NCBI GenBank assembly: GCA_938038445.1
Contig: CALHRZ010000017.1
Location: 12,065-76,064, forward strand
From: an uncultured bacterium
Lineage (GTDB): Bacteria > Verrucomicrobiota > Kiritimatiellia > CAIKKV01
Length of the DNA stretch: 64,000 bases
Reading direction: 5' to 3'
Part shown: positions 17,658 to 39,374 of the stretch, one piece after another
How positions within the stretch are numbered: the stretch's first letter is position 1
How the letters are laid out: every line of letters begins with the position of its first letter
Notes under the pieces: model-generated
Told to the model about the DNA's origin: nothing
Seen by the model: the letters and a program-made list of their open reading frames with translations, nothing else
The model's database searches: none
Position numbers and translations under genes: made by a program

Positions 17658-17697
17658 ACTGGAAAACTCGTTCGTTATTCGGTACTGTAACGGGCCG

Positions 17698-19700: not shown

Positions 19701-19712
19701 GCGCGTCCCCCG

Positions 19713-20123: not shown

Positions 20124-20138
20124 TTCCCGTCCTCCCTT

Positions 20139-20561: not shown

Positions 20562-20601
20562 GACCGTCTCCCCTTCGGCACCCGATCGGGTGCGTTTTCA
20601 G

Positions 20602-21438: not shown

Positions 21439-21440
21439 CT

Positions 21441-25583: not shown

Positions 25584-27395
25584 TCATTTCGGAACCTCCC
25601 CGCCGAAATTGATCGCCATATACTGGGTAAAGGCATAATAGATGATGTTCACCCCCAGTTTGTAAGCCTGGCTGGCCACGGACTCGGAAGCGCCGGAATG
25701 GCCCGTCTTCCAGGCATCGTTGATATCCCCCTGGTGGTAGAATACAACCCAGCGCCCCTTGTACTTGACCCCCAGCGCTTCCTTGCCGGAGTGATGCCAA
25801 AGAGGGGGCGCTCCGTTGGGGAAATAAAAGGGATATTGGAAGATCACGTCATCCTTGGAAATCACGACCAGAGGAAGATCGGGAAAGACCCGCCGCAACA
25901 TTGTCCGGAAACTCCGGTCGAAATTCCCTCCCCCATTGTCCGCAAAGAGCATCCCTCCCATTTCCAGGCAATACTCCCGAAGAATGTTGACTTCCGACTG
26001 GGAGAGATTGATGCTCCCGCGCAACCCGCCGGTGATATAGACAAAAGGCGGAGCTCGATTCTTTGGAAAACGCTTCAACTGGTGGATGCGGATGGACTCC
26101 GTGTGAGGCCAGATGTCAAAACCGGTAAATTCCCGAAACTTGAGAAGCATGTTGTAATCGGCGCCAAATCCCATGTCCTGATCCCAGTCTCCCCCGTCGT
26201 ATTCCAGACGAATAAACCGGACCCTTGCCCGCTCCATTCCGTTCGGCCACCCCCCTTTCTTCCCGCCTCCCGCCCCGAGCTTGCCGAGCTGCTGCGCTTC
26301 GTAAGTCTGTTCGGTCTGGCGATCGATCTCTTCCAGCACCTCGCTGTCCTCGATGCGGGGTATATAAAAGGATATGGGCGCATTCAGGTTGATAATGAAC
26401 TTCTTTTCCGGCTTCTTCTGAATCCGCCGGACCTTGATCATCTCGATCATCGGCGTTCCGCTGCCTTGCGGAATCCCATACGGCAGTTCCATGCATCCCC
26501 ACCGAAACGCGATCAGGGGGAGAATAAAAATGAAGAAAAGGTGCAGCAGAGAGGAAAGATAGAGCGATTTCCTAAAGGGAGGATCCTCTCCGTGACGGCG
26601 GAGGTTGTCCCAAAGCCAGTCCGCCCAACCCGGTTGTTCCCCCTTCCGCCCGTACCAAGCGCCCGTCCGACAAAGCCATAGCGCCATGGTAAAAGCCGCC
26701 ACACCAACGATCCACGGCAGCACCCGTATCGTGCCCCAGGTCCAAAGTTCATTGCGTACCGTATTCCCATAAGCATCCGGTTGAAAGCGGCGGAGGAGCG
26801 AAGGAATCACCAGAACCCACCGCCAGATCAGGAGAAAGTAGAAAACCAGGGCAAGGGCAACCCCGCGCAGAAAAACAATCACCCCAGGGCGACGATAAAA
26901 CGACGCCAACGCCGCCAAAGGAAGAAGGACCATCAAAACGCCGGAAAAGACCGCCAGAACCCCATAGAACCCTCCCCAACTTTCCCACGGAAGGGTGTTC
27001 AGTGTCGGAACATCCATGTCCAGCAAATGGGCCAGCGCCGCCACGCCGTAACCGGTCACCCGAGAAGGAAGCCAGGCAACCCCAACGAAAAGAATCCCGA
27101 TCACGCACGGGGGAGTGACCCAACGAAGAGACTCCTCCCCAACCGTTCGACACCACGCCCGAAGACGAAGAAAAATTGGCGAAAAAAACCCTTGCAGCAG
27201 AATCGCGGTCCTAAGAGCGAGCTCACGTATCCTTCCCGCCAACGGACGAACTCGTACGGTCGCGAGAGAGAACAGGGCCATCAGGCCGTCATCCACCCGG
27301 CCTGGAAGACGCACCAAAGTCCGAATCGGACCGATGCGCCCGATTCGGTAGATCCATCTCCGCCCTTCGAACCTCACCCGGCCCCCCTTGATCAA
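25584..27395 (-). CDS. Polytopic membrane protein with C-terminal DUF4159-like domain
   Basis: 603 aa. The N-terminal half has many TMs. The C-terminal ~200 aa (VYITGGLRGSINLSQSEVNILREYCLEMGGMLFADNGGGNFDRSFRTMLRRVFPD...KGRWVVFYHQGDINDAW) resembles DUF4159. The match is from memory and not searched. An ATGA overlap joins it to the upstream gene. Confidence 0.55.
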   Translation of the reverse strand: MIKGGRVRFEGRRWIYRIGRIGPIRTLVRLPGRVDDGLMALFSLATVRVRPLAGRIRELALRTAILLQGFFSPIFLRLRAWCRTVGEESLRWVTPPCVIGILFVGVAWLPSRVTGYGVAALAHLLDMDVPTLNTLPWESWGGFYGVLAVFSGVLMVLLPLAALASFYRRPGVIVFLRGVALALVFYFLLIWRWVLVIPSLLRRFQPDAYGNTVRNELWTWGTIRVLPWIVGVAAFTMALWLCRTGAWYGRKGEQPGWADWLWDNLRRHGEDPPFRKSLYLSSLLHLFFIFILPLIAFRWGCMELPYGIPQGSGTPMIEMIKVRRIQKKPEKKFIINLNAPISFYIPRIEDSEVLEEIDRQTEQTYEAQQLGKLGAGGGKKGGWPNGMERARVRFIRLEYDGGDWDQDMGFGADYNMLLKFREFTGFDIWPHTESIRIHQLKRFPKNRAPPFVYITGGLRGSINLSQSEVNILREYCLEMGGMLFADNGGGNFDRSFRTMLRRVFPDLPLVVISKDDVIFQYPFYFPNGAPPLWHHSGKEALGVKYKGRWVVFYHQGDINDAWKTGHSGASESVASQAYKLGVNIIYYAFTQYMAINFGGEVPK

Positions 27396-28426
27396 AGCTT
27401 GAGTTCAATATCAGTAGGCCGGGGCGTTTCGCCCGGCACGGGAAGCGTCTCCCATTCCTGGGTGGACGAAGGAGCCACCGGCGAAGGCGGGGGAGACGTA
27501 GCCGGGGTCGCGGGAATCGGCGCCGTCACGGTGCCCGTTTCCGCGCCCGCCGAACCCGGCGGCGCTTGGGTGACCGATCCGCCCGTCGCAACCGCAGCTG
27601 TCGGAACTTCCGGTTCAGGTTCTTTCGGCCGGATGCGCCGATACAAATATCCCAAAGAGGTCAATCCGAGAACCACAAGATGTATCGCAACCGCCGCCCG
27701 CAAAAAGCGGGCAAACGAAACCTTGCGAAGATCGGACATGGCCACGTCCGCACGAGCGGCCTCCGATTCCCAGTCGATCTCACCCCCGCGCTTCAGAAGG
27801 TCCCGTTCTATGGCGGCGGCCGACACATTCTCCCCGGCAGGAGCCGACGCCCGTTCCCGGAGTTCTTGCTCGAGGCGAGTGATGACGGCTCGCGCCGCCT
27901 CAAGTTCAGCACGGGACTGCGCCGTCCATTCCAGCCGCTGCCGTTCCATGTCCTCCGCATGCCGGGTCTGAACAGACGCCAATTCCCGTTCCGCGCGCTC
28001 CAGACGCAAACGCGATGTCTCAAGCAAGGTTTCGAGTTCCTTGATGCGCTCGGACAACAAGCGAATTTCAGCCTCTTTCCGATCCAACCGTTCCTTCCAA
28101 ACCCGATCCTCACCTGAAACTGAAGAGGACGACAACGCGGAAACCGGAGGCGGAGCCGGCGCAGGCTCTTTCGTTTCCGGCGACGGTGAAAGGGGCGCGG
28201 CCGCAGATTTCGAAGGCTGCTCGGTCATCGCCGCATCCGCAGGAAATGACTTCACCGGCGCCGAAGGGGCAGGAGCTTCGCCCGACATGCGACCGGCAGG
28301 TTCCGTCTCGGTCGGAACAGGCGTCTTTTTGGCGCACCGGGGACAAAGAATGGTCTTTCCCGCAAAGGTTTTGAGCACTTTGAGGGCCGCCCCGCATCGA
28401 GCACAAGAAAAAGCAATCGTATTCAT
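27392..28426 (-). CDS. Zinc-ribbon / coiled-coil / single-TM / Pro-rich protein (candidate TonB/TolA-like coupling protein)
   Basis: Start is MNTIAFSCARCGAALKV...CPRCAKK (CxxC...CxxC zinc ribbon). A long heptad coiled coil follows (EIRLLSERIKELETLLETSRLRLERAERELASVQ), then one TM (AVAIHLVVLGLTSLGYLY), then a Pro/Thr/Ala-rich C-terminus. The ATG at 28426 is verified, and an ATGA overlap joins it to exbD. Confidence 0.55.
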   Translation of the reverse strand: MNTIAFSCARCGAALKVLKTFAGKTILCPRCAKKTPVPTETEPAGRMSGEAPAPSAPVKSFPADAAMTEQPSKSAAAPLSPSPETKEPAPAPPPVSALSSSSVSGEDRVWKERLDRKEAEIRLLSERIKELETLLETSRLRLERAERELASVQTRHAEDMERQRLEWTAQSRAELEAARAVITRLEQELRERASAPAGENVSAAAIERDLLKRGGEIDWESEAARADVAMSDLRKVSFARFLRAAVAIHLVVLGLTSLGYLYRRIRPKEPEPEVPTAAVATGGSVTQAPPGSAGAETGTVTAPIPATPATSPPPSPVAPSSTQEWETLPVPGETPRPTDIELKL

Positions 28427-28830
28427 TGTCCGGATCCCGTCTTTTCGCCGATCAGAACCAGTTCCGCCTCGGATTGGGCCAGGGCGGCGAGCACCCGACC
28501 GAATTCGCGATACCGCCGATCCCGATCCATTTTCAAATACACCCGCCGGTCCTTCCGGTCGCCAAGTAAGGAGGACACCAGCGGCTCCAGCGCATCCAAC
28601 GCGCATTCTTCACCCTGCACCCACAGCCGGCCTTGTTCGTCCAGAACCACGCTGAGGGGTGCCTGCTCGAGAATCTCGATATCGGGCGATTCGGGCGGCC
28701 GGCTTTTAATATGCGCCTCCTTCATGAAGACCGACGCCAGCACAAAGAAAATGATGAGCTGAAAAGCAATATCGCCGAAGGATGTGAGGGGAAGAAGGGG
28801 TTGGCGGCGCCGTCTGCGGGCAATCTTCAC
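28423..28830 (-). CDS. ExbD/TolR family protein
   Basis: 135 aa. The ExbD-like TM is LTSFGDIAFQLIIFFVLASVF. Confidence 0.75.
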   Translation of the reverse strand: MKIARRRRRQPLLPLTSFGDIAFQLIIFFVLASVFMKEAHIKSRPPESPDIEILEQAPLSVVLDEQGRLWVQGEECALDALEPLVSSLLGDRKDRRVYLKMDRDRRYREFGRVLAALAQSEAELVLIGEKTGSGQ

Positions 28831-29300
28831 GAGCCCTCCTTTCCGCCGCCTCCGGAGGGAGGTGAACCCGATGCCCCCCCGCCTCCCTCTCCGCTTTCGG
28901 CGCTTTCCACAAGGGCCAGGATTCCACCCTCGCGGGCAATCGCGGTCACCACCTTGTAGTAGCGATCGTAATCCACGTCAGGAGCGCACTCTACGATCAA
29001 AACCCGCTCGCTCTCAGAACGTTCCCGCAGCTTCATCTGTTTCAGCGCCTCGCGGAACTCTTCGATCGTAAGGGTTTCCTCCTTGAATTGCAGCGTCTCC
29101 GCCGTCAGAGCAACAGTGGGGTATTCCTCCTCCGGTTTCTGGGACTCCTCCTGCGTGCTGGCCGGGATCATGACGGAAACCCCCATGCTTTTGGAAAAGG
29201 TCGTCGTCAGAATGAAGAAAATGATCAGAAGAAACGCGACGTCGGCAAAGGAGGTGACGTCCACGTCTCGGAATTCACGGGGTTTTCGCGCAATACGCAT
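28827..29300 (-). CDS. ExbD/TolR family protein
   Basis: 157 aa. The TM region is VTSFADVAFLLIIFFILTT, and the C-terminal tail is Gly-rich. Confidence 0.75.
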   Translation of the reverse strand: MRIARKPREFRDVDVTSFADVAFLLIIFFILTTTFSKSMGVSVMIPASTQEESQKPEEEYPTVALTAETLQFKEETLTIEEFREALKQMKLRERSESERVLIVECAPDVDYDRYYKVVTAIAREGGILALVESAESGEGGGGASGSPPSGGGGKEGS

Positions 29301-29317
29301 CGGAAAAGCCAGGAATT

Positions 29318-29956
29318 TCAGTCCCGCAAATGCAAAAAGTTAACGAGTTCGTTGGCCGAATCTTCGATCGCGATCGTCAGTTGTTCAACGCGATTGACAA
29401 AGAGGTTGTAGGCAATGACCGCCGGGACCGCGATCAAGAGCCCTGCCGCCGTGGTAATCAACGCCTCCGAGATGCCGGCCGCCACATCGCCGCCTTGCAG
29501 AGTGCCGCCCGCCTTGGCCATTTCGTTGAACGCCTTGATCATACCCGTAACCGTTCCCGTCATGCCAACCAGCGGCGCCGTACTGCCCACCAGCAGCAAC
29601 AGCCCGACCCGTTTCTCCAATTCCGCCAACACATGCGGCGCATAATCCTCCATACATTTGGAGACACTCGCTTCGATTTCCGCTTTCTGTCGCCTCAGCG
29701 CCATTAACGCCCGGTAGCGATTGAGCCCCGCAAGCAAAATCGCCGCCACAGGACCTTTGGTTTCTTCACATAAGCGGATCGCTTCGTCCACCTTGCGCTC
29801 CGCGAGCAATTGCAAAACCATGCGCCGGAGCAATGAGGTATCCCGGCTGGCGGTCGCCAAAACCCTCCAGCGCTCCAAAATCACAGCCAGTCCGGTGATC
29901 GAAAGAGCGAGCAACACCCACATCAGGGGGCCGCCGTCGAGCATGAATTTCAGCAT
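29318..29956 (-). CDS. MotA/TolQ/ExbB proton-channel family protein
   Basis: 212 aa. The three-TM topology ends in the conserved region LVGMTGTVTGMIKAF...ITTAAGLLIAVPAVIAYN. Confidence 0.8.
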   Translation of the reverse strand: MLKFMLDGGPLMWVLLALSITGLAVILERWRVLATASRDTSLLRRMVLQLLAERKVDEAIRLCEETKGPVAAILLAGLNRYRALMALRRQKAEIEASVSKCMEDYAPHVLAELEKRVGLLLLVGSTAPLVGMTGTVTGMIKAFNEMAKAGGTLQGGDVAAGISEALITTAAGLLIAVPAVIAYNLFVNRVEQLTIAIEDSANELVNFLHLRD

Positions 29957-29973
29957 GGGACAGAACTCCGGAG

Positions 29974-32139
29974 TTATCGGTTAATCAGTTCCAACACCTT
30001 GTGCGCCTTGCCTGCAGCGACACTGTTCGGATAATCGCGAATCAGGGCGGTCAGTTTTTCGCGGGCTTCATTCTGCCGGCCAAGGCGGACCAGGACCACG
30101 CCCCATTTCAGGAGCATTTCGTCCAGGAAGGGGGCATCAGGATAATCCTGAAAAACGGTTTGAATCATCTCCAGACAGCGGGCGTAATCTCGTGCTTCCA
30201 GGTGGAAGTCGATCACCTTGCCCAGCGCTTCCCCGGCAAAAGGCGAATCGGGATACTGCTCGGCCACGGAGCGGTAAGCCGCAATCGCCTGCCCCAAGGC
30301 GCGCAGGCGTTCTTCTCGGCTGAGATTGGATCGGATGCTCTGCTCCAGTGTCTGCGCCAGCAAAAATTGGGCCTCCGCCTTCAGATCGGGGGATGTCTTG
30401 AGCCCCAAAATGCCACGCAGGAGTCCCGCGGCTTCGTTCGGCTTTCCCGCGTTGAGATAAGCCCGTGCAATCTGCATCATCGCCACATCGGCCAGCGAAG
30501 AAGTGGGAAAAAGCGCCATGAGCTGGCGGCAGGTGGCGATCGCCCCGCTCAGATCGTCCTTGGCAATCTGAAGTTCCCACTTCAACTGATAGGCCTCTTC
30601 CACCAGTTCGGGCGGAAGCGAGGCGCGGGCATACCGCCGGAGCACATCCTCGACCTTTTCCAACCCTGTATCCGCCTTTTCATGCGACCGAGCCATCAAT
30701 CCCACATCCTTGAAAATCTGGGCTAATCGAAGATAAAACTTGGCCTCCGTCACATTTTTGCGGGCCCGCAGCACCTCCGTCGCCACCTCCCGTTGCGCCA
30801 CCATGACGTCGGGAATCTCGCCGGCCAGAAATTCCGCGCGAGCTGAAACCAAACGCGGTTCCTTCCGGCTCCCAATGTGTGCCTTGTCCTCATATTCGAG
30901 AAAGATGATGTCTTTCTCCGCCGCCGATAGAATGCTGTCAGCCGTGTTCAAGGGCTGGCCTTCCTCCCATTTCTGAATGTTCAAGGTTCCCGTAAACACT
31001 CCCGTCATCGGCCCGCTCTCCCGAAGCGTCAAAGAGAGGCTGTCCCGATCCAATAACTCCTCCACTTCCAACGCAGCCGCCGTTTCCTCGCGCGGGGCCG
31101 GGTAGCGGGCAATAATCCGTACCACGACCGTGTCCGGACCGTCGGTGACATCGGCATCCAAGTCCTTGACCCGAAGAAACGCCGGTTGGCCGACAAAAAG
31201 ACCTCGCACATATTCCCGGTAGGCACCGTCCGTAAAGCCTGCCACGGCCGTCGAAACAGTCCGCGCAAAGGCTTTGCGCTCCACGTTTCGCCCCCCGTCC
31301 TGCGTGTTGGCATCCAGATAGGAAACCGTAATGCGGTCCCCGCCGCGCACTTCCAGAATGCCGTTGGTCGCCACCGCCTTTCCTTGTTCCATTCGGATGC
31401 TGCCCAAATAGAACTCCCCCTCTGCATCAAAGGGTTCCAGCGTCAAACGTTCCCGATCGCCCGAATCGGTTGTGACCGTGACTTCCAACGGGCGGCCCGC
31501 GATTTTGAGAACACGCAGGTCCTTGTCCTGAATCTTGACAAAAAACCGCTGCCCGGCTTCGACAAGGGACTCCTCTTCTCCTTCGTTAGGAGGAACGCTG
31601 GTCCCAACCATTTTGAGGGCTTCAACCGCCTGTCGCCACCGTTTCAACTGGAAATGGCACAGTCCAATATAATAGTAGGCTTCGTTGGCAAAAACGCTCC
31701 ACGGATACTGGTCCGTCACCTTCCGCAAGGTCGAAAGGGCGCGGGGATAATCCCCCAATCCGTAATGAGCGATCCCCATGCGGTAGAGCGCCTCCGCCTT
31801 TTCGTCCGGTCCCGCATCTTCCGCATCCAGCACCGGCTGAAGATTCTTGAGCGCGAGGGCGAAATCGGGCCTGTTCTCGGTGTAATACCGCCCAATTGCC
31901 AGCCAGGCCTGGAGCCGAACGGGCGATTTGGGAAAGGTGGCGGGAATCGAGGCCAACACCTTGAGCCCGCGCTCGTCCTGCCGGTCTTCAATCAGGGCAA
32001 GCCCCTGCCGGAATAACCGCATCGCCGCCGGGTCGCCCGCGCCGGAAGAATCGGTCGGCGTCTGCTGGGCCCTGCCGGCGGCCCCCGCCAGCAGCCCTCC
32101 GATTGTTACTGCCGCCATCACCATCGTTTTCCACTTCAT
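29974..32139 (-). CDS. Secreted TPR-repeat protein (~720 aa) with central beta-rich region
   Basis: It has a signal peptide (MVMAAVTIGGLLAGAAGRAQQ). TPR blocks sit at both the N- and C-termini, flanking a non-TPR middle of about 250 aa. Confidence 0.6.
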   Translation of the reverse strand: MKWKTMVMAAVTIGGLLAGAAGRAQQTPTDSSGAGDPAAMRLFRQGLALIEDRQDERGLKVLASIPATFPKSPVRLQAWLAIGRYYTENRPDFALALKNLQPVLDAEDAGPDEKAEALYRMGIAHYGLGDYPRALSTLRKVTDQYPWSVFANEAYYYIGLCHFQLKRWRQAVEALKMVGTSVPPNEGEEESLVEAGQRFFVKIQDKDLRVLKIAGRPLEVTVTTDSGDRERLTLEPFDAEGEFYLGSIRMEQGKAVATNGILEVRGGDRITVSYLDANTQDGGRNVERKAFARTVSTAVAGFTDGAYREYVRGLFVGQPAFLRVKDLDADVTDGPDTVVVRIIARYPAPREETAAALEVEELLDRDSLSLTLRESGPMTGVFTGTLNIQKWEEGQPLNTADSILSAAEKDIIFLEYEDKAHIGSRKEPRLVSARAEFLAGEIPDVMVAQREVATEVLRARKNVTEAKFYLRLAQIFKDVGLMARSHEKADTGLEKVEDVLRRYARASLPPELVEEAYQLKWELQIAKDDLSGAIATCRQLMALFPTSSLADVAMMQIARAYLNAGKPNEAAGLLRGILGLKTSPDLKAEAQFLLAQTLEQSIRSNLSREERLRALGQAIAAYRSVAEQYPDSPFAGEALGKVIDFHLEARDYARCLEMIQTVFQDYPDAPFLDEMLLKWGVVLVRLGRQNEAREKLTALIRDYPNSVAAGKAHKVLELINR

Positions 32140-32155
32140 GGGCTTGTTGCTCCGC

Positions 32156-33982
32156 TTAGAGGTCCTCATCCAAAATACCGCCTCCCGTCGCCACGCCATA
32201 CCGTTCCAGCCACTGATGCGCCTGAGACGAAACCGGATGCTGAGGATACTTTTTCAGCACAGCCCGCAAGGCCGCAATCGTTTTCTCACGGTTCTTGGCT
32301 CCTTCCCACACCTGCGCTTTGCGCAACGCGGCCTGCGGCGCATCGCGTTCGAAAAAGTTCTCGATTTCCGTAAGGGCTTCCACCGCCTGCTCCGGTTTGC
32401 CCCACCGTTGATAGCATTCGGCCGTAGCCCAGATCGTCGCGGGGGGATCATTGATCATCGCGTAAAGTTTGATCGCCTCTTCATAACGAGCCAGCCGATC
32501 TTTATAGAGGGTGGCGCGCAAACGCAAGGCCCTAAGGGAATAAGTCTTATCGTCCATTTTCTCAAGTTCTTCACATTTTTCGGCTTGAACCGCCCATTTC
32601 TCCTGCGCGCCCAACACTTCGATCTCCTTCCAAAGAGCCAGCGGAGGCGATTCGATCCGTCGAGCCATTTCGATCGCCCGCTCAAACTGCCGAGCGTTTC
32701 GAAATCGATCGCATAGACCCGCAAGACCGTTGTCCCGTTCGGGATTCGGCATGCGGAGATAATGCTCCCGGGCCCGAGCGATCAGGGCGTTCCATACGTC
32801 CGCGTGCGGCTCGGTTCCTGCGATCGGCATCGGAAAGCGATCCAGCGCCGGAAGAATCACCGCCAGTTGGCCCGCAGCATCCAGCCGATCCAACCGTCCC
32901 GCCAGAACTTCCCCAAAGTTTTTCCATTCGGGGGCAACGGTAAACTTCACCTGCCCCCCCTCGACCAGCCGGGGAATCATCCACTGGACCGATGAGCGAA
33001 GCGCGTCGCGGTTCTCCACTCGGCGAAAATCGTCCAGGGCGCTCTTCCAGATTTCCCCCCACTCCCGGCTCAAGCGCGCCCGCGCCGCAAGTGTGAGCAT
33101 GCGATTATACCAGTCGGAAAGACGCCCCGCTTCGGAAAAGACGGTCCTCTTCATCCGAGCCCATTCAAAAAAAACCCGCCGCTGCTTCTCGGGGATCGAA
33201 TCGAAAACGGCAAGTCCCCGATCGAGAATAAAAACCGCCTGGTCGGGCGGCTTGGCTCCAGTTGGAGGAAAACGGCCCAGAAGGCGATCCGCATCCTCGT
33301 ATCGTCCTTGCCGACAGTATAAATCCGTCAGCTTCTGTCGGGCCGTTGTTGCCGCGCTTTCCGGCCTTCCAACGAAGGATTCGAGATAGCCGTCAACAAT
33401 CCGCGTCCAACACCGTTCGGCTTCCCGCCACTTTTCTTGCTGCGCATAAAAGTCGGCCAGCCGGTCCAGCATGAGGTCCGCGACCGGATGGGCCAATGCC
33501 GCATCACGGTCGGTCATCTCCTGCCACACGGCGAAACCTTGCTCGAGATTCCCGTTCTCAATCAACGCAAGCCCCTTTAAATAGGCCGCCGGAACTGCCT
33601 CGTCCATGGACTTGCCGAAAAAGTCGAGCACCTCATTGTACCGCTGAATCGCCTTGTTCCGAAACCGGGCGAGATGATAGCCTAACCCCTGCATGAGAAG
33701 GGCGTGGCCATACACCGGCGTTTGAGGATTGGCGGTCACAAACTTTTCGTATTCGAGCGCCGCCGCCTCGAACTTGCTTTCCCGGATGAGTTTTTCCGCC
33801 GCTTCATACTGAAGCCGTTCCGCCTGGGACAGCAACCCGTACTTTCGCGGCGGGAGAGTCCAGGACCAAACGCCCTTGAAAATATCCTCCGCAGGTCCTG
33901 CACACAGGCGAACAGAAGCCATCCCCCACGTCCACGCCACAAGGATCTGAAGCCACCGACCTTTCACCCTCAATCCCGGCAT
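32156..33982 (-). CDS. Secreted TPR/helical-repeat protein (~608 aa)
   Basis: The start is chosen at MPGLRVKGRWLQILVAWTWGMASVRLCAGP (signal-like), 1 nt after the stop of the 1527-aa TPR gene. The body is alpha-helical repeats. Confidence 0.55.
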   Translation of the reverse strand: MPGLRVKGRWLQILVAWTWGMASVRLCAGPAEDIFKGVWSWTLPPRKYGLLSQAERLQYEAAEKLIRESKFEAAALEYEKFVTANPQTPVYGHALLMQGLGYHLARFRNKAIQRYNEVLDFFGKSMDEAVPAAYLKGLALIENGNLEQGFAVWQEMTDRDAALAHPVADLMLDRLADFYAQQEKWREAERCWTRIVDGYLESFVGRPESAATTARQKLTDLYCRQGRYEDADRLLGRFPPTGAKPPDQAVFILDRGLAVFDSIPEKQRRVFFEWARMKRTVFSEAGRLSDWYNRMLTLAARARLSREWGEIWKSALDDFRRVENRDALRSSVQWMIPRLVEGGQVKFTVAPEWKNFGEVLAGRLDRLDAAGQLAVILPALDRFPMPIAGTEPHADVWNALIARAREHYLRMPNPERDNGLAGLCDRFRNARQFERAIEMARRIESPPLALWKEIEVLGAQEKWAVQAEKCEELEKMDDKTYSLRALRLRATLYKDRLARYEEAIKLYAMINDPPATIWATAECYQRWGKPEQAVEALTEIENFFERDAPQAALRKAQVWEGAKNREKTIAALRAVLKKYPQHPVSSQAHQWLERYGVATGGGILDEDL

Positions 33983-33983
33983 G

Positions 33984-36900
33984 TCAGTTTTCCGTCGCAA
34001 ACTTCCGGAACGCCTGATCGTTTTGAACCAGTTGCCCCCGGGCAAATTTCGCCCATTTACTCTCCGGATAATCCCACGTCAACCGTTTGAATGCGATATA
34101 GGCGTTCTTCATGTCCTGTGTCTTCAGGTAGCAGTCGCCGAGCCAGTACATCGCCTCCGCCCGAAGATCCTTGTCCTCGTACAACGCGAGAAGCCGCTCA
34201 AATTTGGCGATGGCTTCCGTTAGCCAGGACTTCGCTTTCTCATCGTACCGACCCTCCAAAACCGTCTTCCGTTCCTCCGCCCCCTTCATGTAGCTCTGGG
34301 CCGAAAGGAAGAGCGCTTTGGCCGCCAACTCGTGTTCCGGATTGCGGGACTGGAAGTTCCCAAAGATTTTGCCAGCAACCTCGTATTCTTTCGTACGATA
34401 AAAGTATTGCGCCAACCGGAGAATCGCATCGGAAACCAGAGGGCTGCGGGGATAGGCATACGTCAGTTCGACATAGGCATCGAGCGCATTGTCATTGTCC
34501 CCCATTCGCTCCAGACAGATCCCTTTCCGCAGCTGGGCTTTCGGTGCAAACTCGCTATCCGGCCAGTTGCTCAATACCTTGTTGTATCGCTCCAGCGCCT
34601 CTTCAAATTTCTCCAACTCCTGCGCCAGATTGCCGAGCAAAAATTCGGCATGGGGCGCATGAACCGTATCGGGATAATCCGCAATCGCCTCTTCCAAGAT
34701 CTGCTTGCCCTCCGCAATTTCTGCTTCGGCTTGAGATTTCTGCCCGGTTTCGCGATGTTCTTTGGCCAACTCGAACAATGCTTCGGCCATCAACAGGCGC
34801 GTTTTGACCGCAATGTCTTCGTTCGAGAACCGCTTGGTAAACGTTGCCAACCGCCCATCATCACCCATGAAAACCTGAACCTGAGCGGTCACGGCCCGCG
34901 GTTGAGTCGCAATCACGCTGACGGCATCTTGGTAAATCGCCGTGATCGTCTCCCCATATTCGACCGGAAGAACGCCCTCCTGAACGGCCCCAGAGCCTGC
35001 AAGTTCCGTCTTGATCCGCCCCGAAAAGACGCCGGAATGCGGCAGGGTTTCGGTCAAAACCATCGGAAATTCCCCCGCCTTGACGCGCAGACGAACCTCC
35101 ACCGGATCGAGTTCGTCCGTTTGATCCATATCCCGATCCATGAGCAGCAAATGGGCGTAATCCCCCACGAAAATCTGCCGTTCCGGCTCAAGATAGCGTC
35201 GGTCCATAAACCGCATGGAGGCATCGGTCGCAAGCGCAAACCAGCCCCGCGTCGCGGGTTCTTTCCGAACCGTAGGAATCACTACCCGCAACAGGTCAAC
35301 GCTCCGCATGTAAAAACGGGCCCGTCGAGCGTTGAGACGGCCCAGGGCCTCCTCCCGGCTGTCCTCCTCAACATATCCTGAGGAATCGCCAAGCCGCACG
35401 TCCACAAAGACCGAAAACTCCCCGTTCGTCGGGTCGCTCAACGTCATCGGAATCTCCTGATACGGAGGCCGCCTTCCCGCCGCTTCCGCCTCAGCGGCTT
35501 CCCGTTCGGTCGTCAGCCAAGCCACATGGGTGGATTTGGCGCCCAAAGCCGCCGCCGGATAGAGAACCCGGAAATGGACCGATGTGTCCATGCTTGTGAC
35601 CAGGGGCGCTTCGGGTCGTTGCCCCGCGCCCGCCGGGGCTGGACGGATCTGAACAACCGGACCCTTCTTTCCGGTCAGCCCTTCGTCGTCCCTCAAAAAT
35701 ACCGTTTGATAAAGGAGGAGTTCAGGAGGGTCCTGGGGAGCATCCGTGACCGAGGCGGTCCGGACAAGCTGTCCGTCGCTGCTTTCCTCGTCCCGGTACT
35801 CCAGGGTTACGGTGTCGCCCGAGGTCACCGCGATCGTGTCCCCTGCCGTCTGTCGGCCAAGACGAAGAATCGCGACAAAGACCCCAGAGTGAGGTTCCGT
35901 TTCGATCGCCTCCATTTCCAGAGACTCGCCCGAAGCCGTCGTAATCCACACGGGCACCTTGTCATGCTCCCGGCTCACATCGGCGTCATAGTCGGTGATG
36001 TGCACAACGAGCGATTCGGTCTCGCCCGTCCGAAACCGAAAGGCGGGATCATGTACGATCTCCCGTTCGCCTTTGGCATTCATCTCGATCGTTTCATAAG
36101 CAAACATCACTCGCGCATTGAAAAACCCGGATCGCAGCACCGCCGTCAAGCGGTTGTTGTCGCGTCGAATTCGACGTTCGTCCATATAAGAAATTTCGAT
36201 TCGGTCTCCCGGTCCGAGATGCAATACCCCGTCCGCCGCCCCCTTCAACCGTTCGGGCGGGAGAGGCAGAATGGCTTCGCCGCGCGGGCCAACAATGGTG
36301 GCCGTCCGAATGGCCACGTCGTTTCCTTCAAAACCGTCAAATACCCATCGAAGCTTCCGGACGGAAACAGGACGCGTGAAACGGGCCGTCGCCTTCTGCG
36401 ATTCCAACACCAGATGACCCGCGGGCGTCACGTCAACACTCTTCCAGCGAAATATTTGATCCCGGATGCGAACCGGCTTCTCCGTCTGCACCCGCGCGCC
36501 GAATTCGACACTCTCTTCCGGAGTCGGTCGGTTGAAGAGATGCCACTTGAGTACGACTCCTGGCGCCGCCGGCGGCACGGAGGGCATGGAAGCCAAGGGG
36601 TTGTTGGCTTTGTCCAGGACCGTCATGCTGGCTCCCCACGGTCCGCTGATCTGCGCCACCCGTAGTACGACGCCGTTCGTCCCCGCCTTCAATGAGCCCG
36701 TGACCGCATCCTCTTCGGGTTTCCAGATCCGCCCCGCCGGCCGACTATGGATCCGCTGGCCGTTCAGCCAAACCGTCACTCCATCACAACTGCCGATTTT
36801 GAAAACCGCCTCCTGGTCCGTTTCGCTGACGAGTTCCGTATAGAGAAAGGCCGCGGTGTTGCGCAGCGAACCAAAATGAGCGGCCAGATCCACGTAGCCA

Positions 36901-38567
36901 TAAACCTGCTCGCGGGATGGCTTCGTACTGAGAAGCGGCGTAAGCTTGTCGCCCGCCCCGCCCAACAACGTAAGATCGCGGACTGTGCCCCCGCCCGATA
37001 GATCCAACACTGCACTCCCGATCGGTTGGACGTTCATCAGATCCACCTCCCACCACGGCGGTTCACTGCCGCGAGATCCGCTCTTCCAGCCCGCCGATCC
37101 TGTAGCCAGGGGCCCGGCGGGATCCCGGCCGCTTGCCGTGTCGGATGCCGTCGCGCGGGGAGGCGACTTGGCCGTGGGAAGCTCACCGCGAAAGATCCCC
37201 GTATTGGGTCCCGTCTCTGTCAACCGCACCGGGTCAACCACATCCCCCGAGGAGGCGGCGGCACGCACTTCCACGGCATCGGGAGTTGGACTGACGCTCC
37301 GGTCATAGTCCACAACTTGAATGCGGATTGGATTGCCAGGACGAACCAGCCAGGGATCCCGTTCCCGCTCAAATGCGGCCATGGATTTTCCGTCCCGCTG
37401 CAGAAGAATCGCCATCCGTTGGCGAAGCAATGCCTCATCGCGCTGCTCGGCGCTCTGAAATTCCCCCGCTGTTGCGGTCAATTCCCCATCGGAAATCACG
37501 GCCATTTGTTTGGCCTCGTACTTCAGATTGTTCGCTTTTTGAAACGCTTCTTCAATTTGATATGCCACCGCATCGCCCCCCAATACCTGAAGCCGCAAGT
37601 CCCCCGGAACAGCCGGCCCGAGAACCGTGCTGATGGAGCCGCGGAACAAGGTCGGATCCCGCGGCGTAGGCAGGAGATTGAGCTTCTCTCGATCGCCTCC
37701 TTTGAGCGTCCGAATTTCGACCGGAATGCCTGCGCCCCCGCGAACAATCGCAAGATTCGGATCCTGCATCCTCATGGTAACAGGCCGGCCAGGTACCACG
37801 TATGAGGTCAGCACCCGTTCGCCGATTTCGAGTTCAGGATCCTGCAGACGGTCTTCGCGCAGATTGATTTCCGCTTCCAAAAAAATCGCCTCCACATGTT
37901 CGGGCACCCGTTTTTTTACCTCCAGCAGATTGGCCCTCGCCTCCGCATAATCCTCTCGATCAAAGGCAATCCGAGCCGCCAGAAAATACGCTTCCGCCTG
38001 AGCGGCCGCTTCCGGCGCATCCTTCAACCGCTCGATCAGCATGTCTGCGCCATCAAAGTCCCTTGTTAAGCGTAAAATGTCCACCACCCGAAATCTCGCG
38101 TGGCGTCCCGATTCGGTCAGGCGGAGATCCCGGTCCCGATCGAGACTTTCATACTCCAGTTTCGCCGCCGCATAATTTTGCTGATCCCGATACGTATCCC
38201 CCTTGATCAACCGCAGCCGAGCCGTCTGCTCCGGATTCATCCGCCGAGCAGCGAGCACCATATCGGCCACTGCGATCGCCTCTTTGTACTCTTTGTGCCG
38301 ACGATGCTGATCGGCAACCCAGATCACGAAGTCGCTGTCAAGCGAACTCCAGTGCTGCCGCAGCGTCTGCGCCTTGGGAAGATAGAGGTCCCATGCCCGC
38401 GCTTCCTGCCCCTCTTTGTAGGCCTGAGCCGCCGCTTTGAGCGCCTCAAGGGCGGAATCAGATGCTTGCTGCGCACGAACGGCGCTCAACGGAACAAGCA
38501 GCGAAATGATCGCCAGCGCGAGACTCCACGGTTTAGAACGGGAAGACGGGGGGCGGGAAACCATCAT
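33984..38567 (-). CDS. Giant secreted TPR-repeat protein (1527 aa) with internal beta-sandwich/jelly-roll-like regions
   Basis: It has a signal peptide (LALAIISLLVPLSAVRAQQ) and TPR arrays at both termini. The large central non-TPR segments include a ConA/LamG-like stretch (FKIGSCDGVTVWLNGQRIHS...). The ATG pair at 38567 and 38564 is verified. Confidence 0.65.
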   Translation of the reverse strand: MMVSRPPSSRSKPWSLALAIISLLVPLSAVRAQQASDSALEALKAAAQAYKEGQEARAWDLYLPKAQTLRQHWSSLDSDFVIWVADQHRRHKEYKEAIAVADMVLAARRMNPEQTARLRLIKGDTYRDQQNYAAAKLEYESLDRDRDLRLTESGRHARFRVVDILRLTRDFDGADMLIERLKDAPEAAAQAEAYFLAARIAFDREDYAEARANLLEVKKRVPEHVEAIFLEAEINLREDRLQDPELEIGERVLTSYVVPGRPVTMRMQDPNLAIVRGGAGIPVEIRTLKGGDREKLNLLPTPRDPTLFRGSISTVLGPAVPGDLRLQVLGGDAVAYQIEEAFQKANNLKYEAKQMAVISDGELTATAGEFQSAEQRDEALLRQRMAILLQRDGKSMAAFERERDPWLVRPGNPIRIQVVDYDRSVSPTPDAVEVRAAASSGDVVDPVRLTETGPNTGIFRGELPTAKSPPRATASDTASGRDPAGPLATGSAGWKSGSRGSEPPWWEVDLMNVQPIGSAVLDLSGGGTVRDLTLLGGAGDKLTPLLSTKPSREQVYGYVDLAAHFGSLRNTAAFLYTELVSETDQEAVFKIGSCDGVTVWLNGQRIHSRPAGRIWKPEEDAVTGSLKAGTNGVVLRVAQISGPWGASMTVLDKANNPLASMPSVPPAAPGVVLKWHLFNRPTPEESVEFGARVQTEKPVRIRDQIFRWKSVDVTPAGHLVLESQKATARFTRPVSVRKLRWVFDGFEGNDVAIRTATIVGPRGEAILPLPPERLKGAADGVLHLGPGDRIEISYMDERRIRRDNNRLTAVLRSGFFNARVMFAYETIEMNAKGEREIVHDPAFRFRTGETESLVVHITDYDADVSREHDKVPVWITTASGESLEMEAIETEPHSGVFVAILRLGRQTAGDTIAVTSGDTVTLEYRDEESSDGQLVRTASVTDAPQDPPELLLYQTVFLRDDEGLTGKKGPVVQIRPAPAGAGQRPEAPLVTSMDTSVHFRVLYPAAALGAKSTHVAWLTTEREAAEAEAAGRRPPYQEIPMTLSDPTNGEFSVFVDVRLGDSSGYVEEDSREEALGRLNARRARFYMRSVDLLRVVIPTVRKEPATRGWFALATDASMRFMDRRYLEPERQIFVGDYAHLLLMDRDMDQTDELDPVEVRLRVKAGEFPMVLTETLPHSGVFSGRIKTELAGSGAVQEGVLPVEYGETITAIYQDAVSVIATQPRAVTAQVQVFMGDDGRLATFTKRFSNEDIAVKTRLLMAEALFELAKEHRETGQKSQAEAEIAEGKQILEEAIADYPDTVHAPHAEFLLGNLAQELEKFEEALERYNKVLSNWPDSEFAPKAQLRKGICLERMGDNDNALDAYVELTYAYPRSPLVSDAILRLAQYFYRTKEYEVAGKIFGNFQSRNPEHELAAKALFLSAQSYMKGAEERKTVLEGRYDEKAKSWLTEAIAKFERLLALYEDKDLRAEAMYWLGDCYLKTQDMKNAYIAFKRLTWDYPESKWAKFARGQLVQNDQAFRKFATEN

Positions 38568-38654
38568 GGCGCGTCCTGTCAGTTGGGCTTGCGATAACGA
38601 ATGAGAGCTTTTAAGATAACCGAAACCTCAAAAATCATCAATTTGTTTTTCACC

Positions 38655-39374
38655 ATGCCTATTTTCCGCTGTCCATATTGTCGCGGCCTCTTTTCCGAGC
38701 TCCTCCAACACGCCTGCCCCCACTGCGGCCGAACCCCCTTGATGCCGGCCGACCGGCGAAAATCGCCCGCACATTCCTCCACTCCCCCTCTTGCCTCCCG
38801 GCGTCGCCCACCGCCCCCGTTTCTCCTCGGATTTCTCGGTCACAACGGGTTCAAGCTGACCGCTGCTCTCCTGATCCTGCTCGCTGCCGGCAGCGCCCTC
38901 TTGAGCCGCGCCCGCACTCCCCCGGTGGACAGCACGCCAAGAAAAATCGAACGGACACGCCAAAGCCTCGCCAATCTGCGGGTCGCTGTGGAACAGTTCC
39001 GCCTGGATACCGGCCGCTATCCTTCCACCGAGGAAGGACTCGCCGCCCTCGTTCATCCCCCCGACGGAATTCAGAACTGGGACGGCCCCTATATCGTCGT
39101 GCTCAAAAACGACCTCTGGGGGCGTCCCTTTCGCTACCGTCTGAACGGAAATTCACCCTTCCTCGCCGGCGATGGGCCGGACCGCGAAAGCAATACCCAG
39201 GACGATCTCGTGGTTGAGGAAGAACAGACCCGAATCGAGTTTCCAACCGCCGGCGGACTCCGGGCCGTTATCGCTTTCTGGGACGGCTCCCGCCAAGCCA
39301 TTGTGGATGAAACGCTCCCCCCACCCCGCGCCATTCGAACCCGTATCGTGCCGAACCCTCCGGGCACGCCCTAG
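38655..39374 (+). CDS. Type II secretion GspG-like pseudopilin domain protein with N-terminal zinc ribbon
   Basis: Start is MPIFRCPYCRG...CPHCGRTP (C4 zinc ribbon), followed by a basic/Pro-rich linker and a hydrophobic helix (LGFLGHNGFKLTAALLILLAAGSALL). The C-terminal domain matches the T2SS-G fold (LANLRVAVEQFRLDTGRYPSTEEGLAALVHPP...WDGPYI...DLWGRPFRY). The canonical G/FTLxE cleavage motif is absent. It is divergent from the 1527-aa TPR gene. Confidence 0.6.
   Translation: MPIFRCPYCRGLFSELLQHACPHCGRTPLMPADRRKSPAHSSTPPLASRRRPPPPFLLGFLGHNGFKLTAALLILLAAGSALLSRARTPPVDSTPRKIERTRQSLANLRVAVEQFRLDTGRYPSTEEGLAALVHPPDGIQNWDGPYIVVLKNDLWGRPFRYRLNGNSPFLAGDGPDRESNTQDDLVVEEEQTRIEFPTAGGLRAVIAFWDGSRQAIVDETLPPPRAIRTRIVPNPPGTP

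What the first reader, a model, noticed from the sequence alone, without database searches (positions are those of the whole stretch)
38568..39374. Pseudopilin (GspG-like) domain fused to a cytoplasmic zinc-ribbon leader, with a degenerate prepilin-peptidase motif, divergent from the 1527-aa TPR gene
The C-terminal ~120 aa match the T2SS-G pseudopilin fold (EQFRLDTGRYPSTEEGLAALV...WDGPYI...WGRPFRY). The N-terminus is instead a ~70-aa segment with a C4 zinc ribbon and an Arg/Pro-rich linker before the hydrophobic helix. The expected G/FTLxE cleavage-methylation motif is absent: the sequence reads GHNGFKLTAALL, with no Glu at +5. If the leader is uncleaved, the protein is an inner-membrane-anchored pseudopilin-like module with a cytoplasmic metal-binding domain. 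It shares an 87-nt divergent promoter region with the module-B TPR genes, and a secretin gene lies at the other end of the minus-strand block.
Basis: partly seen in the sequence, partly recalled or inferred. Interest (0 to 1): 0.65.

Follow-up and report, generated by a model that had tools for sequence, protein, structure and literature searches.

The report
Membrane-anchored pseudopilin with zinc-ribbon tail
This gene belongs to a conserved, undescribed family in Kiritimatiellia and Lentisphaerae bacteria in which a type II secretion pilin (GspG) has lost its processing site, gained a cytoplasmic zinc-binding domain, and sits next to Tol/Ton-like proton motors rather than secretion genes.

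Summary
The real CDS is 38655-39374 (+), 239 aa. It has four parts: an N-terminal C4 zinc ribbon (CPYC-x11-CPHC), a basic/proline-rich linker, one TM helix, and a GspG-type pseudopilin head (Pfam PF08334, E=2.9e-18; Foldseek top hits GspG/PulG/EpsG). The PulG Ca2+ ligands are retained.

The TM helix aligns in register with the pilin N-terminal helix. No family member has Glu at +5, and most have Pro where the cleavage Gly(-1) belongs. The architecture defines a large family: 235 clusters at 50% identity, seen only in Lentisphaerae, Victivallales, Kiritimatiellia and Verrucomicrobiota MAGs. Databases call it "GspG" or hypothetical.

I found no secretin, GspE, GspF or prepilin-motif gene in the window. 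None of 57 family loci carries a GspE-type ATPase, against 38 of 106 canonical GspG loci. Instead, 13 of 57 family loci carry ExbB (0 of 106 controls), in many arrangements. Some are same-strand, with the gene directly after exbB-exbD, where tonB usually lies.

Best reading: an uncleaved, non-polymerising, inner-membrane-anchored pilin-derived protein that works with ExbB/ExbD-TPR envelope modules. Its biochemical role is unknown.

The parts
38568..38654 (.). 87-nt divergent intergenic spacer between the 1527-aa TPR gene (-) and the zinc-ribbon pseudopilin gene (+); 43% GC
   Evidence: No sigma-70-like promoter was found by the consensus scan. Only patchy conservation with L001 and L002.
38655..39374 (+). 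CDS of the zinc-ribbon/TM/GspG-like protein (239 aa plus stop)
   Evidence: Start fixed by homologue alignment and the GC step. Family of 235 clusters at 50% identity.
38655..38750 (+). Residues 1-32: C4 zinc ribbon MPIFRCPYCRGLFSELLQHACPHCGRTPLMPA (CxxC-x11-CxxC); inferred to be cytoplasmic
   Evidence: Four Cys invariant in 123/123; P7, Y8, P22, P31 at 89-95%. Model pLDDT 81-86. Only sub-threshold matches to many Pfam zinc-ribbon families. No significant fold match.
38751..38846 (+). Residues 33-64: basic, Pro-rich, disordered linker
   Evidence: pLDDT below 50 for residues 33-51. The family's N-terminal region averages 15.6 K+R against 5.3 D+E over about 71 residues.
38847..38915 (+). Residues 65-87: TM helix homologous to pilin alpha1-N (GFKLTAALLILLAAGSALLSRAR). 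Gly(-1)/Phe(+1) remnant, Ala at +5, pilin Gly14 equivalent (G79) retained
   Evidence: hhalign register against canonical GspG. G79 conserved in 105/123; position -1 is Pro in 82/123; no Glu at +5; acidic residue in the TM in only 2/123.
38934..39212 (+). Residues 94-186: GspG-type pseudopilin head (alpha1-C helix plus beta sheet); inferred to be periplasmic
   Evidence: PF08334 E=2.9e-18. Foldseek top hits GspG/PulG/EpsG. hhalign against canonical GspG: probability 99.9%, E=1.8e-33.
39174..39206 (+). Residues 174-184: GPDRESNTQDD, the Ca2+-binding loop of major pseudopilins
   Evidence: D176, D183 and D184 align with PulG D117, D124 and D125. These are the Ca2+ ligands reported in PMC13081927. 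Conserved in 122, 118 and 122 of 123 sequences.
39213..39371 (+). Residues 187-239: C-terminal beta-strand extension specific to the window's subclade
   Evidence: Present in about 10-12 of 123 sequences. Model strands 185-195, 202-208 and 213-218. No Pfam match.
27392..38567 (-). Adjacent module A: TPR 1527 aa (33984-38567), TPR 629 aa (32156-34045), TPR 741 aa (29974-32199), ExbB/TolQ-like (29318-29956), ExbD/TolR-like x2 (28827-29300, 28423-28830), and a zinc-ribbon/coiled-coil/TM/Pro-rich protein (27392-28426)
   Evidence: Pfam and NCBIfam scans. Syntenic in L001 and L002.
18207..25522 (-). Paralogous module B: TPR 1091 aa, TPR 269 aa, ExbB/TolQ-like 278 aa, ExbD/TolR-like 140 and 136 aa, and a 497-aa TM-anchored protein with weak squalene-cyclase-like matches. 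This is the module type next to which family members lie in most other lineages
   Evidence: neighbourhood analysis.

Best explanation
The gene encodes a bitopic inner-membrane protein derived from a major pseudopilin. The N-terminal zinc ribbon and basic linker stay in the cytoplasm. The former pilin alpha1-N helix acts as an uncleaved signal anchor. A Ca2+-binding GspG-type head sits in the periplasm at the membrane surface.

Three features mean it cannot be processed and extracted into a filament like GspG. The family lacks the prepilin-peptidase site (Pro at -1 in most members). It lacks Glu5. It carries a folded cytoplasmic domain. It is therefore a permanently anchored pilin-fold module.

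Its genes have left the gspE/F/G clusters. They recur next to, or inside, TPR-ExbB-ExbD-ExbD modules that include a TM-anchored partner with weak squalene-cyclase-like matches. I therefore propose that it is an accessory membrane partner of these Tol/Ton-like proton-motive-force motors. Its TM helix would dock on the ExbB/ExbD complex, and its head would engage a periplasmic (TPR) component. The zinc ribbon would provide a cytoplasmic handle for localisation or regulation, as in the bitopic zinc-finger proteins GltJ and ZitP.

Shown: the architecture, the family, the loss of the motif, the retained Ca2+ site, and the gene-neighbourhood shift. Inferred: the topology, the absence of cleavage, and the partnership with ExbB/ExbD. 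The actual output is unknown.
For: Architecture.

Family size: 235 clusters at 50% identity with E<=1e-30. Of 166 sequences examined, 124 have CxxC...CxxC within the first 60 residues. Family members carry PF08334 but never PF07963 in the precomputed domain lists, whereas canonical hits carry both.

Motif loss: Pro at -1 in 82/123, Gly in 13/123, Glu5 in 0/123.

Neighbourhood, all 58 family loci (including the window) scored by BLAST:
- 26 loci have homologues of the window's TPR, ExbB, ExbD or 497-aa module genes within the flanks.
- At least 8 different arrangements occur.
- Same-strand, operon-like cases include L112 (TPR, TPR, an 816-aa unknown, ExbB, ExbD, ExbD, 66-nt gap, family gene, 497-aa gene), L099 (ExbB, ExbD, 142-nt gap, family gene), L108 and L168 (family gene first, then the TPR gene), L114 and L117.

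Controls, 57 fetched family loci versus 106 canonical GspG loci retrieved by the same scans:
- ExbB HMM hits: 13/57 versus 0/106 (Fisher p=4e-7).
- ExbD hits: 16/57 versus 1/106.
- GspE-type ATPase: 0/57 versus 38/106 (p=7e-9). Nine of ten sampled control ORFs are PF00437.

None of nine Pfam-annotated contexts holds T2SSE, T2SSF, Secretin or Peptidase_A24.

Precedents for zinc-finger/TM/periplasmic-domain proteins controlling envelope machines: GltJ in the Agl-Glt machinery (PMC11135422) and ZitP for Caulobacter pili (PMC5182063).
Against: - No experiment exists, and the physical link to ExbB/ExbD rests on gene neighbourhood only.
- In the window and several other loci the gene lies on the opposite strand from the module.
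- One large clade (21 of 58 loci) has hisI upstream and no module within about 8-10 kb.
- The TM helix lacks the His-containing TonB/TolA-type anchor motif, so it is not a TonB analogue in the strict sense.
- The family loci are phylogenetically related and some are duplicates, so the Fisher tests overstate independence.
- The control loci come mostly from other phyla.
- Positive-charge counts on the two TM flanks do not by themselves fix the topology (2.6 versus 3.2 K+R).
- The window's subclade keeps Gly(-1)/Phe(+1), so cleavage there is not excluded by sequence.
Confidence: 0.5

Rival explanations
1. It is a long-leader prepilin. In the window's subclade the prepilin peptidase cuts at Gly65|Phe66. 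This removes a 65-residue zinc-ribbon pro-domain and releases a Glu5-less pseudopilin, which would act like the Glu5-less tip subunit GspK or as a non-polymerising periplasmic pilin.
For: All close relatives (P0001, P0004-P0011) keep G-[FAV]-K at the exact register of G(-1)/F(+1). From established knowledge of prepilin peptidases, Gly(-1) is the main cleavage determinant and Glu5 is not needed for cleavage.
Against: Across the family, position -1 is Pro in 82/123 and Gly in only 13/123. The 'leader' is a strongly conserved folded domain with four invariant Cys, unlike any class III signal peptide I know of. No peptidase A24 family was found in the window ORFs scanned or in nine annotated contexts, and no other prepilin-motif ORF in the window.
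Confidence: 0.1
2. It is still a T2SS or type IV filament component encoded away from the main cluster. As a fixed basal or anchor subunit, its pilin head and helix would dock on a pseudopilus or assembly platform, while the zinc ribbon holds it in the membrane or contacts the cytoplasmic ATPase. This would cap or regulate filament growth.
For: The head is very close to canonical GspG (hhalign probability 99.9%, 36% identity). The Ca2+ ligands are retained. Gly14 of alpha1-N is retained. ZitP shows that a zinc-finger bitopic protein can control pilus biogenesis.
Against: None of 57 family loci is near a GspE-type ATPase, and only 1 of 57 is near any canonical prepilin gene, against 38 and 54 of 106 controls. 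A subunit docking under a filament would be expected to need Glu5 (established model of pilin assembly), and Glu5 is absent in all members.
Confidence: 0.2
3. It is a transmembrane signalling protein. The GspG-like head would sense a periplasmic ligand or protein, and the zinc ribbon with its basic linker would relay this to a cytoplasmic partner or nucleic acid, in the manner of an anti-sigma factor.
For: The architecture (cytoplasmic metal-binding domain, one TM helix, periplasmic domain) resembles zinc-binding anti-sigma factors and one-component membrane regulators. The N-terminal region is very basic.
Against: No sigma factor or regulator is a conserved neighbour. The ribbon matches no anti-sigma (zf-HC2) or DNA-binding family.
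Confidence: 0.1
4. It is an ordinary GspG with a mis-called start, and the zinc ribbon is untranslated upstream sequence.
For: Databases name it GspG. Some gene calls start downstream of the ribbon: P0012 is called at 161 aa, and many representatives begin at profile position 27.
Against: There is no in-frame ATG, GTG or TTG between the ribbon and the TM helix. The ribbon is conserved in frame in 123 sequences with invariant Cys. In P0012's contig the ribbon lies in frame upstream of the called start. Even without the ribbon, Glu5 is missing.
Confidence: 0.02

Closest known systems
GspG / PulG / EpsG, the major pseudopilin of the type II secretion system (PF08334, TIGR01710)
   Same: Homologous alpha1 helix and globular head. 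Ca2+-binding loop with the PulG D117/D124/D125 equivalents. Gly14 of alpha1-N retained. Best sequence and fold matches.
   Different: A 64-residue N-terminal zinc ribbon and linker replace a short basic leader. No Glu5, and Pro at -1 in most members. No PF07963 motif. Scores below the TIGR01710 cut-off (56.5 against 88.85). Never seen next to gspE/F, but often next to exbB/exbD.
GltJ (AgmX) of the Myxococcus xanthus Agl-Glt gliding machinery
   Same: A membrane protein with an N-terminal cytoplasmic C4 zinc-finger domain. It is part of an envelope machine in which that domain acts in a regulatory switch (PMC11135422). From my own knowledge, not from the passages I read, the Agl motor is TolQR/ExbBD-like and the machine includes large TPR proteins.
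   Different: The GltJ zinc finger has Cys at positions 5, 8, 28 and 31 (x19 spacing) and is followed by a GYF domain. Its periplasmic part is not pilin-like. No sequence relationship was shown here.
ZitP of Caulobacter crescentus
   Same: A bitopic protein with a cytoplasmic zinc ribbon, one TM helix and a periplasmic domain. It controls assembly of a type IV (Cpa) pilus (PMC5182063).
   Different: The ZitP ribbon is PF13719 (CXXC-X19-CXXC) and its periplasmic domain is DUF3426. Here the ribbon is x11 and unassigned, and the periplasmic domain is itself a pilin fold. No link to pilus genes was found.
TonB / TolA energy transducers
   Same: Inferred N-in bitopic topology. In L099 and L112 the gene sits directly after exbB-exbD, the usual tonB position.
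   Different: No His-containing TM motif, no Pro-rich periplasmic spacer and no TonB_C domain. In the modules seen here, the 497-aa protein with an S-x3-H motif in its TM helix looks more TonB-like (motif comparison from memory).
Glu5-less minor pseudopilins (GspK / PilX-type tip subunits)
   Same: A pilin-family member without Glu5.
   Different: Those proteins keep a cleavable class III signal peptide and have their own head domains. This one has a GspG head and an uncleavable-looking junction in most members.

Membership tests
T2SS major pseudopilin GspG | GspG-type globular domain (PF08334) and fold | tested here: met
   PF08334 E=2.9e-18, 66.4 bits against a cut-off of 21. Foldseek top 13 hits are GspG/PulG/EpsG. 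hhalign probability 99.9%.
T2SS major pseudopilin GspG | Class III signal peptide: short basic leader, Gly(-1), Phe/Met(+1), Glu(+5) (PF07963 N_methyl) | tested here: not met
   The leader is 64-65 residues with a folded zinc ribbon. Position +5 is Ala here and never Glu in 123 members. Position -1 is Pro in 82/123. PF07963 is absent from all family entries and present in canonical hits.
T2SS major pseudopilin GspG | Reaches the NCBIfam equivalog cut-off (TIGR01710) | tested here: not met
   56.5 bits against a cut-off of 88.85.
T2SS major pseudopilin GspG | Ca2+-binding loop (PulG D117, D124/D125) | tested here: met
   D176, D183 and D184 align with these residues and are conserved in 122, 118 and 122 of 123.
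T2SS major pseudopilin GspG | Encoded with gspE/gspF/other pseudopilins | tested here: not met
   GspE-type ATPase in 0/57 family loci against 38/106 canonical loci. Prepilin-motif ORFs in 1/57 against 54/106. None in the window.
T2SS major pseudopilin GspG | Polymerises into a pseudopilus after cleavage and N-methylation | not testable with these tools
   Needs biochemistry. The sequence features argue against it.
ZitP/GltJ-type zinc-finger bitopic regulators | N-terminal cytoplasmic C4 zinc finger, single TM helix, periplasmic domain | tested here: met
   Model and alignment. Topology is inferred, not measured.
ZitP/GltJ-type zinc-finger bitopic regulators | Zinc ribbon of the PF13717/PF13719 type (CXXC-X19-CXXC) | tested here: not met
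   Spacing is x11. For a family-like ribbon sequence, PF13717 scores 19.6 bits (cut-off 30.3) and PF13719 13.8 bits (cut-off 29.3), each over one knuckle only. Neither family appears for the window's own ribbon. No fold match to ZitP or GltJ.
ZitP/GltJ-type zinc-finger bitopic regulators | Periplasmic DUF3426 (ZitP) or cytoplasmic GYF domain (GltJ) | tested here: not met
   The only domain above threshold is PF08334.
TonB/TolA energy transducers | Encoded with exbB-exbD / tolQ-tolR | tested here: inconclusive
   Adjacent to such genes in many loci, and in the tonB position in L099 and L112. On the opposite strand in the window, and absent from the flanks in the hisI clade.
TonB/TolA energy transducers | TM helix with the conserved Ser/His anchor motif; Pro-rich spacer; TonB_C or TolA C-terminal domain | tested here: not met
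   The TM helix GFKLTAALLILLAAGSALL has no His. There is no TonB_C or TolA match.

The most novel reading that the evidence does not exclude
A pilin fold has been recruited as a dedicated membrane partner of Tol/Ton-like proton-motive-force motors. In Kiritimatiellia and Lentisphaerae, ExbB/ExbD-TPR modules would act on, or through, a non-polymerising GspG-derived protein whose cytoplasmic zinc ribbon sets where and when the machine works. That would be a previously unrecognised type of envelope machine. It would combine parts of the two great families of bacterial envelope nanomachines: type IV filament subunits and Tol/Ton/Mot stators.
Probability: 0.3. Interest if true: 0.8.

Novelty: new variant of a known kind. 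Interest (0 to 1): 0.6.

Why it matters
Pseudopilins are defined by their processing site and by assembly into filaments driven by a cytoplasmic ATPase. Here a whole conserved family keeps the GspG head and Ca2+ site but has lost processing and Glu5. It has gained a cytoplasmic zinc ribbon and has moved, genomically, from gsp clusters to ExbB/ExbD-TPR clusters.

There are three consequences.
- Current automatic annotation of these genes as "GspG / general secretion pathway protein G" is misleading. It can inflate T2SS calls in PVC genomes, and gene callers often clip the ribbon.
- The family is a clear case of a pilin fold put to a non-filament use.
- It marks the poorly understood TPR-ExbB-ExbD modules of Kiritimatiellia and Lentisphaerae, polysaccharide-degrading bacteria that are hard to culture, as a machine worth studying, and gives testable partners for it.

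Tried and rejected
- Locus search with the broad alignments A2 and A1 failed because no stretch was conserved enough. A subset sharing DCGRYPT was used instead, so the loci sample only part of the family.
- A profile of the zinc ribbon alone (A5) against 5.8 billion proteins gave nothing significant. I therefore could not tell whether the same ribbon is fused to other periplasmic domains.
- The AF2 model of the ribbon alone (pLDDT 67) gave only non-significant generic zinc-knuckle matches.
- The consensus promoter/terminator scan of 38300-39700 found no promoter-like site, and the one terminator-like site is within shuffle expectation. The spacer alignment showed little.
- Positive-inside counting does not decide the topology.
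- I considered hisI a possible functional partner because it lies directly upstream in 21 loci. I rejected this as the main lead because the arrangement is confined to one clade and hisI is a housekeeping enzyme.
- The convergent 412-aa neighbour in the window is not related to the ~490-aa protein encoded directly upstream in another clade.
- Literature searches for pseudopilin plus zinc ribbon, PF08334/T2SSG, and GspG in Lentisphaerae or Kiritimatiellia found no description of this architecture.
Full report
**What is at the coordinates**

The finding spans an 87-nt spacer (38568-38654) and one ORF on the + strand. The mechanical ORF list starts it at 38601. Three observations place the real start at the ATG at 38655 (MPIFRCPYC...):
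- In an alignment of 123 homologues, 85 have Met four residues before the first Cys, and nothing upstream is conserved.
- The stretch 38601-38654 is 31% GC, against 64% for the CDS.
- Close relatives on other contigs are called from the equivalent Met.

The product is 239 aa.

**Anatomy**

The AlphaFold2 model, built on an 18-sequence alignment (mean pLDDT 78), and the family alignment give four parts.

1. Residues 1-32 form a C4 zinc ribbon, RCPYC-x11-CPHCG. All four Cys are invariant in 123 of 123 sequences, and P7, Y8, P22 and P31 are 89-95% conserved. It reaches no Pfam or NCBIfam threshold and gives only weak matches to many zinc-ribbon families. A separate model of the ribbon has no significant structural neighbour.
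2. Residues 33-64 form a disordered, Arg/Pro-rich linker.
3. Residues 65-87 form a TM helix.
4. Residues 94-186 form a GspG-type pseudopilin head. Pfam PF08334 scores E=2.9e-18. PDB sequence matches are to GspG/PulG/EpsG only. Foldseek top hits are 3g20, 5wda and 4lw9, with target TM-scores 0.64-0.72.

D176, D183 and D184 align with PulG D117, D124 and D125. PMC13081927 reports D117 and D125, and potentially D124, as the main Ca2+-coordinating residues. They are conserved in 122, 118 and 122 of 123 family members. Residues 187-239 form a beta-strand extension found only in the window's subclade.

**The prepilin motif**

A profile-profile comparison of the family with 30 canonical GspG sequences (probability 99.9%, E=1.8e-33) aligns the TM helix in register with pilin alpha1-N. 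G65-F66-K67-L68-T69-A70 falls opposite G(-1)-F1-T2-L3-I4-E5, and G79 falls opposite pilin Gly14. The helix is therefore a former class III signal anchor.

Across the family, position -1 is Pro in 82 of 123 and Gly in 13. Position +5 is never Glu. Only 2 of 123 sequences have any acidic residue in the helix. In the precomputed domain lists, family members carry PF08334 but never PF07963 (N_methyl). Canonical hits from the same searches carry both.

No in-frame start codon lies between the ribbon and the helix, so no shorter canonical prepilin can be made. The window's subclade still has Gly(-1)/Phe(+1), so cleavage there cannot be excluded from sequence alone. Family-wide, the site is gone.

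**A family, not a one-off**

An exhaustive HMM search of 1.84 billion representatives found 235 clusters (50% identity) at E<=1e-30. Most of the top 150 align from profile position 1. Of 166 sequences examined, 124 have the CxxC...CxxC pair within the first 60 residues. Many of the rest begin at profile position 27, which suggests N-terminally clipped gene calls. P0012 is called at 161 aa, yet its ribbon lies in frame upstream on the contig.

Named sources are all MAGs: Victivallales, Lentisphaerae, Kiritimatiellia/Kiritimatiellae and Verrucomicrobiota. Source names are "general secretion pathway protein G", "GspG" or "hypothetical protein". Full-text searches found no paper combining pseudopilin with zinc ribbon, and none describing this architecture.

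**Context in the window**

Pfam scans of the ORFs of at least 200 aa that I tested in the window found no secretin, T2SSE, T2SSF or peptidase A24.

The minus-strand block consists of two paralogous modules.
- Module A (27392-38567): three TPR proteins, an ExbB/TolQ-like protein, two ExbD/TolR-like proteins, and a zinc-ribbon/coiled-coil/TM/Pro-rich protein.
- Module B (18207-25522): two TPR proteins, ExbB-like, two ExbD-like, and a 497-aa TM-anchored protein with weak squalene-cyclase-like matches.

**Context elsewhere**

I collected 57 further family loci from genomes and metagenomes. With the window that makes 58 loci, scored by BLAST against the window's module proteins.
- 26 loci have module homologues within the flanks, in at least eight arrangements.
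- Opposite-strand arrangements include: divergent from the first TPR gene (window, L001-3, L012, L097); between the second ExbD and the 497-aa gene (L018, L020, L021, L104).
- Same-strand, operon-like arrangements include: L112 (TPR, TPR, an 816-aa unknown, ExbB, ExbD, ExbD, 66-nt gap, family gene, 497-aa gene); L099 (ExbB, ExbD, 142-nt gap, family gene); L117; L108 and L168 (family gene first, then the large TPR gene); L114/L118 (downstream of the 497-aa gene).
- 21 loci, forming one clade, have hisI (PF01502) directly upstream and no module in the flanks.
- 11 loci, several of them on short contigs, show neither.

As a control I used the 106 canonical GspG loci pulled out by the same pattern scans, compared with the 57 fetched family loci:

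| Feature within flanks | Family loci | Canonical GspG loci | Fisher p |
|---|---|---|---|
| ExbB HMM hit | 13/57 | 0/106 | 4e-7 |
| ExbD HMM hit | 16/57 | 1/106 | not computed |
| GspE-type ATPase ORF | 0/57 | 38/106 | 7e-9 |
| Canonical prepilin-motif ORF | 1/57 | 54/106 | not computed |

Nine of ten sampled control ATPase ORFs are PF00437 T2SSE; the tenth is ClpX. The family loci are related to each other and some are duplicates, and the controls come mostly from other phyla, so the p-values are generous. The direction is still unambiguous. This pseudopilin-derived family has left gsp clusters and associates with Tol/Ton-like motor modules.

**Mechanism proposed**

Shown:
- the architecture and the family;
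- loss of the processing and assembly determinants;
- retention of the Ca2+ site;
- the neighbourhood shift.

Inferred:
- N-in/C-out topology, for three reasons. A Cys4 zinc site without a signal peptide should stay in the cytoplasm. The helix is homologous to a pilin signal anchor. The head is a periplasmic fold. Flank charges alone do not decide it.
- No cleavage, and therefore no extraction into a filament.
- A working partnership with ExbB/ExbD-TPR modules.

In this model the TM helix would associate with the motor, the head with periplasmic components, and the ribbon with a cytoplasmic partner. Two precedents support the last point. GltJ has an N-terminal cytoplasmic zinc finger that acts in a regulatory switch within the Agl-Glt gliding machine (PMC11135422). 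ZitP is a zinc-ribbon/TM/periplasmic-domain protein needed for Cpa pilus biogenesis (PMC5182063).

I put about 0.9 on the architecture and non-canonical status, about 0.75 on a real genomic association with the modules, and about 0.45-0.5 on the protein being a working component of them. What the machine does is unknown.

**Rivals**

- A cleaved long-leader prepilin in this subclade (0.1).
- A remote T2SS or T4P basal or regulatory subunit (0.2). The absence of Glu5 and of any gsp neighbour argues against it.
- A transmembrane signalling protein (0.1).
- A mis-called start (refuted).

**Comparison and novelty**

By homology it is a GspG derivative. It fails three defining GspG features that I tested: the class III signal peptide, the equivalog score, and gsp clustering. 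It should not be filed as GspG. By architecture it resembles GltJ and ZitP, but its ribbon is of a different, unassigned type and its periplasmic domain differs. It is not a TonB.

I rate it a new variant of a known kind: a conserved, undescribed domain fusion with a changed genomic partnership. It would become more than that if the coupling between a pilin fold and a proton-motive-force motor is confirmed.

Noticed in passing
window 27392-28426 (-) (ORF listed as 27392-28606): The gene after ExbB-ExbD-ExbD of module A encodes another N-terminal C4 zinc ribbon (MNTIAFSCARCGAALKVLKTFAGKTILCPRCAKKTPVP, x16 spacing). An Ala/Pro linker, a coiled coil, a TM helix and a Pro-rich tail (PKEPEPEVP...) follow. 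The layout is GltJ/TonB-like. No family reaches threshold. In L007 the gene divergent from the family member has a ribbon 63% identical to it over 35 aa.
   Followed up: partly
window 18207-19700 (-): The 497-aa last gene of module B has an N-terminal TM helix with a conserved LWGPxGS-x3-H motif, then a short I/V-x-V-x-hydrophobic-E segment and a Glu/Pro-rich linker. This recalls the TonB/TolA anchor (comparison from memory). A region with only weak squalene-cyclase/GlcNAc-epimerase-type matches replaces TonB_C. The motif is conserved in homologues from L097, L105, L106, L108 and L114.
   Followed up: partly
window 18207-25522 and 27392-38567 (-): There are two paralogous TPR-ExbB-ExbD-ExbD modules, separated by a DUF4159 protein (25584-27395). 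The motor proteins match TolQ/ExbB and TolR/ExbD models only below the equivalog cut-offs. The 269-aa TPR protein weakly matches YbgF/CpoB. I found no description of this system, though I did not search the literature for it specifically.
   Followed up: partly
window 39371-39374: The family gene and the convergent 412-aa gene (39371-40609, no Pfam match) overlap at a shared CTAG that holds both stop codons. No terminator lies between them. The same 4-nt overlap occurs in L001 and L002.
   Followed up: no
L008-L011, L013, L014, L017, L019, L022, L087-L090, L093-L096, L098, L100-L102, L167: In one clade of the family a stand-alone hisI (PRA-CH, PF01502) lies directly upstream on the same strand, with gaps of 5-272 nt. 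The pairing is conserved across MAGs labelled Victivallales, Lentisphaerae and Kiritimatiellia.
   Followed up: partly
L004 8532-10001, L107, L114 4534-6027, L115, L118, L119; P0235 context: In another clade a protein of about 490 aa with a hydrophobic, signal-peptide-like N-terminus and no match in my Pfam copy lies directly upstream. In L004 its end overlaps the family gene's start. L004 and L114 share 36% identity (E=2e-61). For P0235 the upstream 475-aa gene is tagged PF27149 (YdjY) in the precomputed table. No homologue is present in the window.
   Followed up: partly
L007 4055-4765; many database entries: Gene callers often clip the zinc ribbon. P0012 is annotated as a 161-aa 'GspG', yet the ribbon lies in frame upstream. 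Many cluster representatives begin at profile position 27.
   Followed up: yes
window 15699-17708 (-), 56281-57309 (+): The gene at the far end of the minus-strand region is DnaX (DNA polymerase III gamma/tau), followed by RecR. It is not a secretin. The only outer-membrane secretion-type hit among the window ORFs I scanned is a CsgG-family protein at 56281-57309.
   Followed up: yes
L097 7935-9939; L099 1416-4309: In two metagenome contigs the family gene lies between two different ExbB/ExbD modules. In L097 it is divergent from a TPR1091-like gene and convergent with an ExbB212/ExbD135-like pair. In L099 it follows ExbB-ExbD on one strand and faces ExbD-ExbD on the other.
   Followed up: partly
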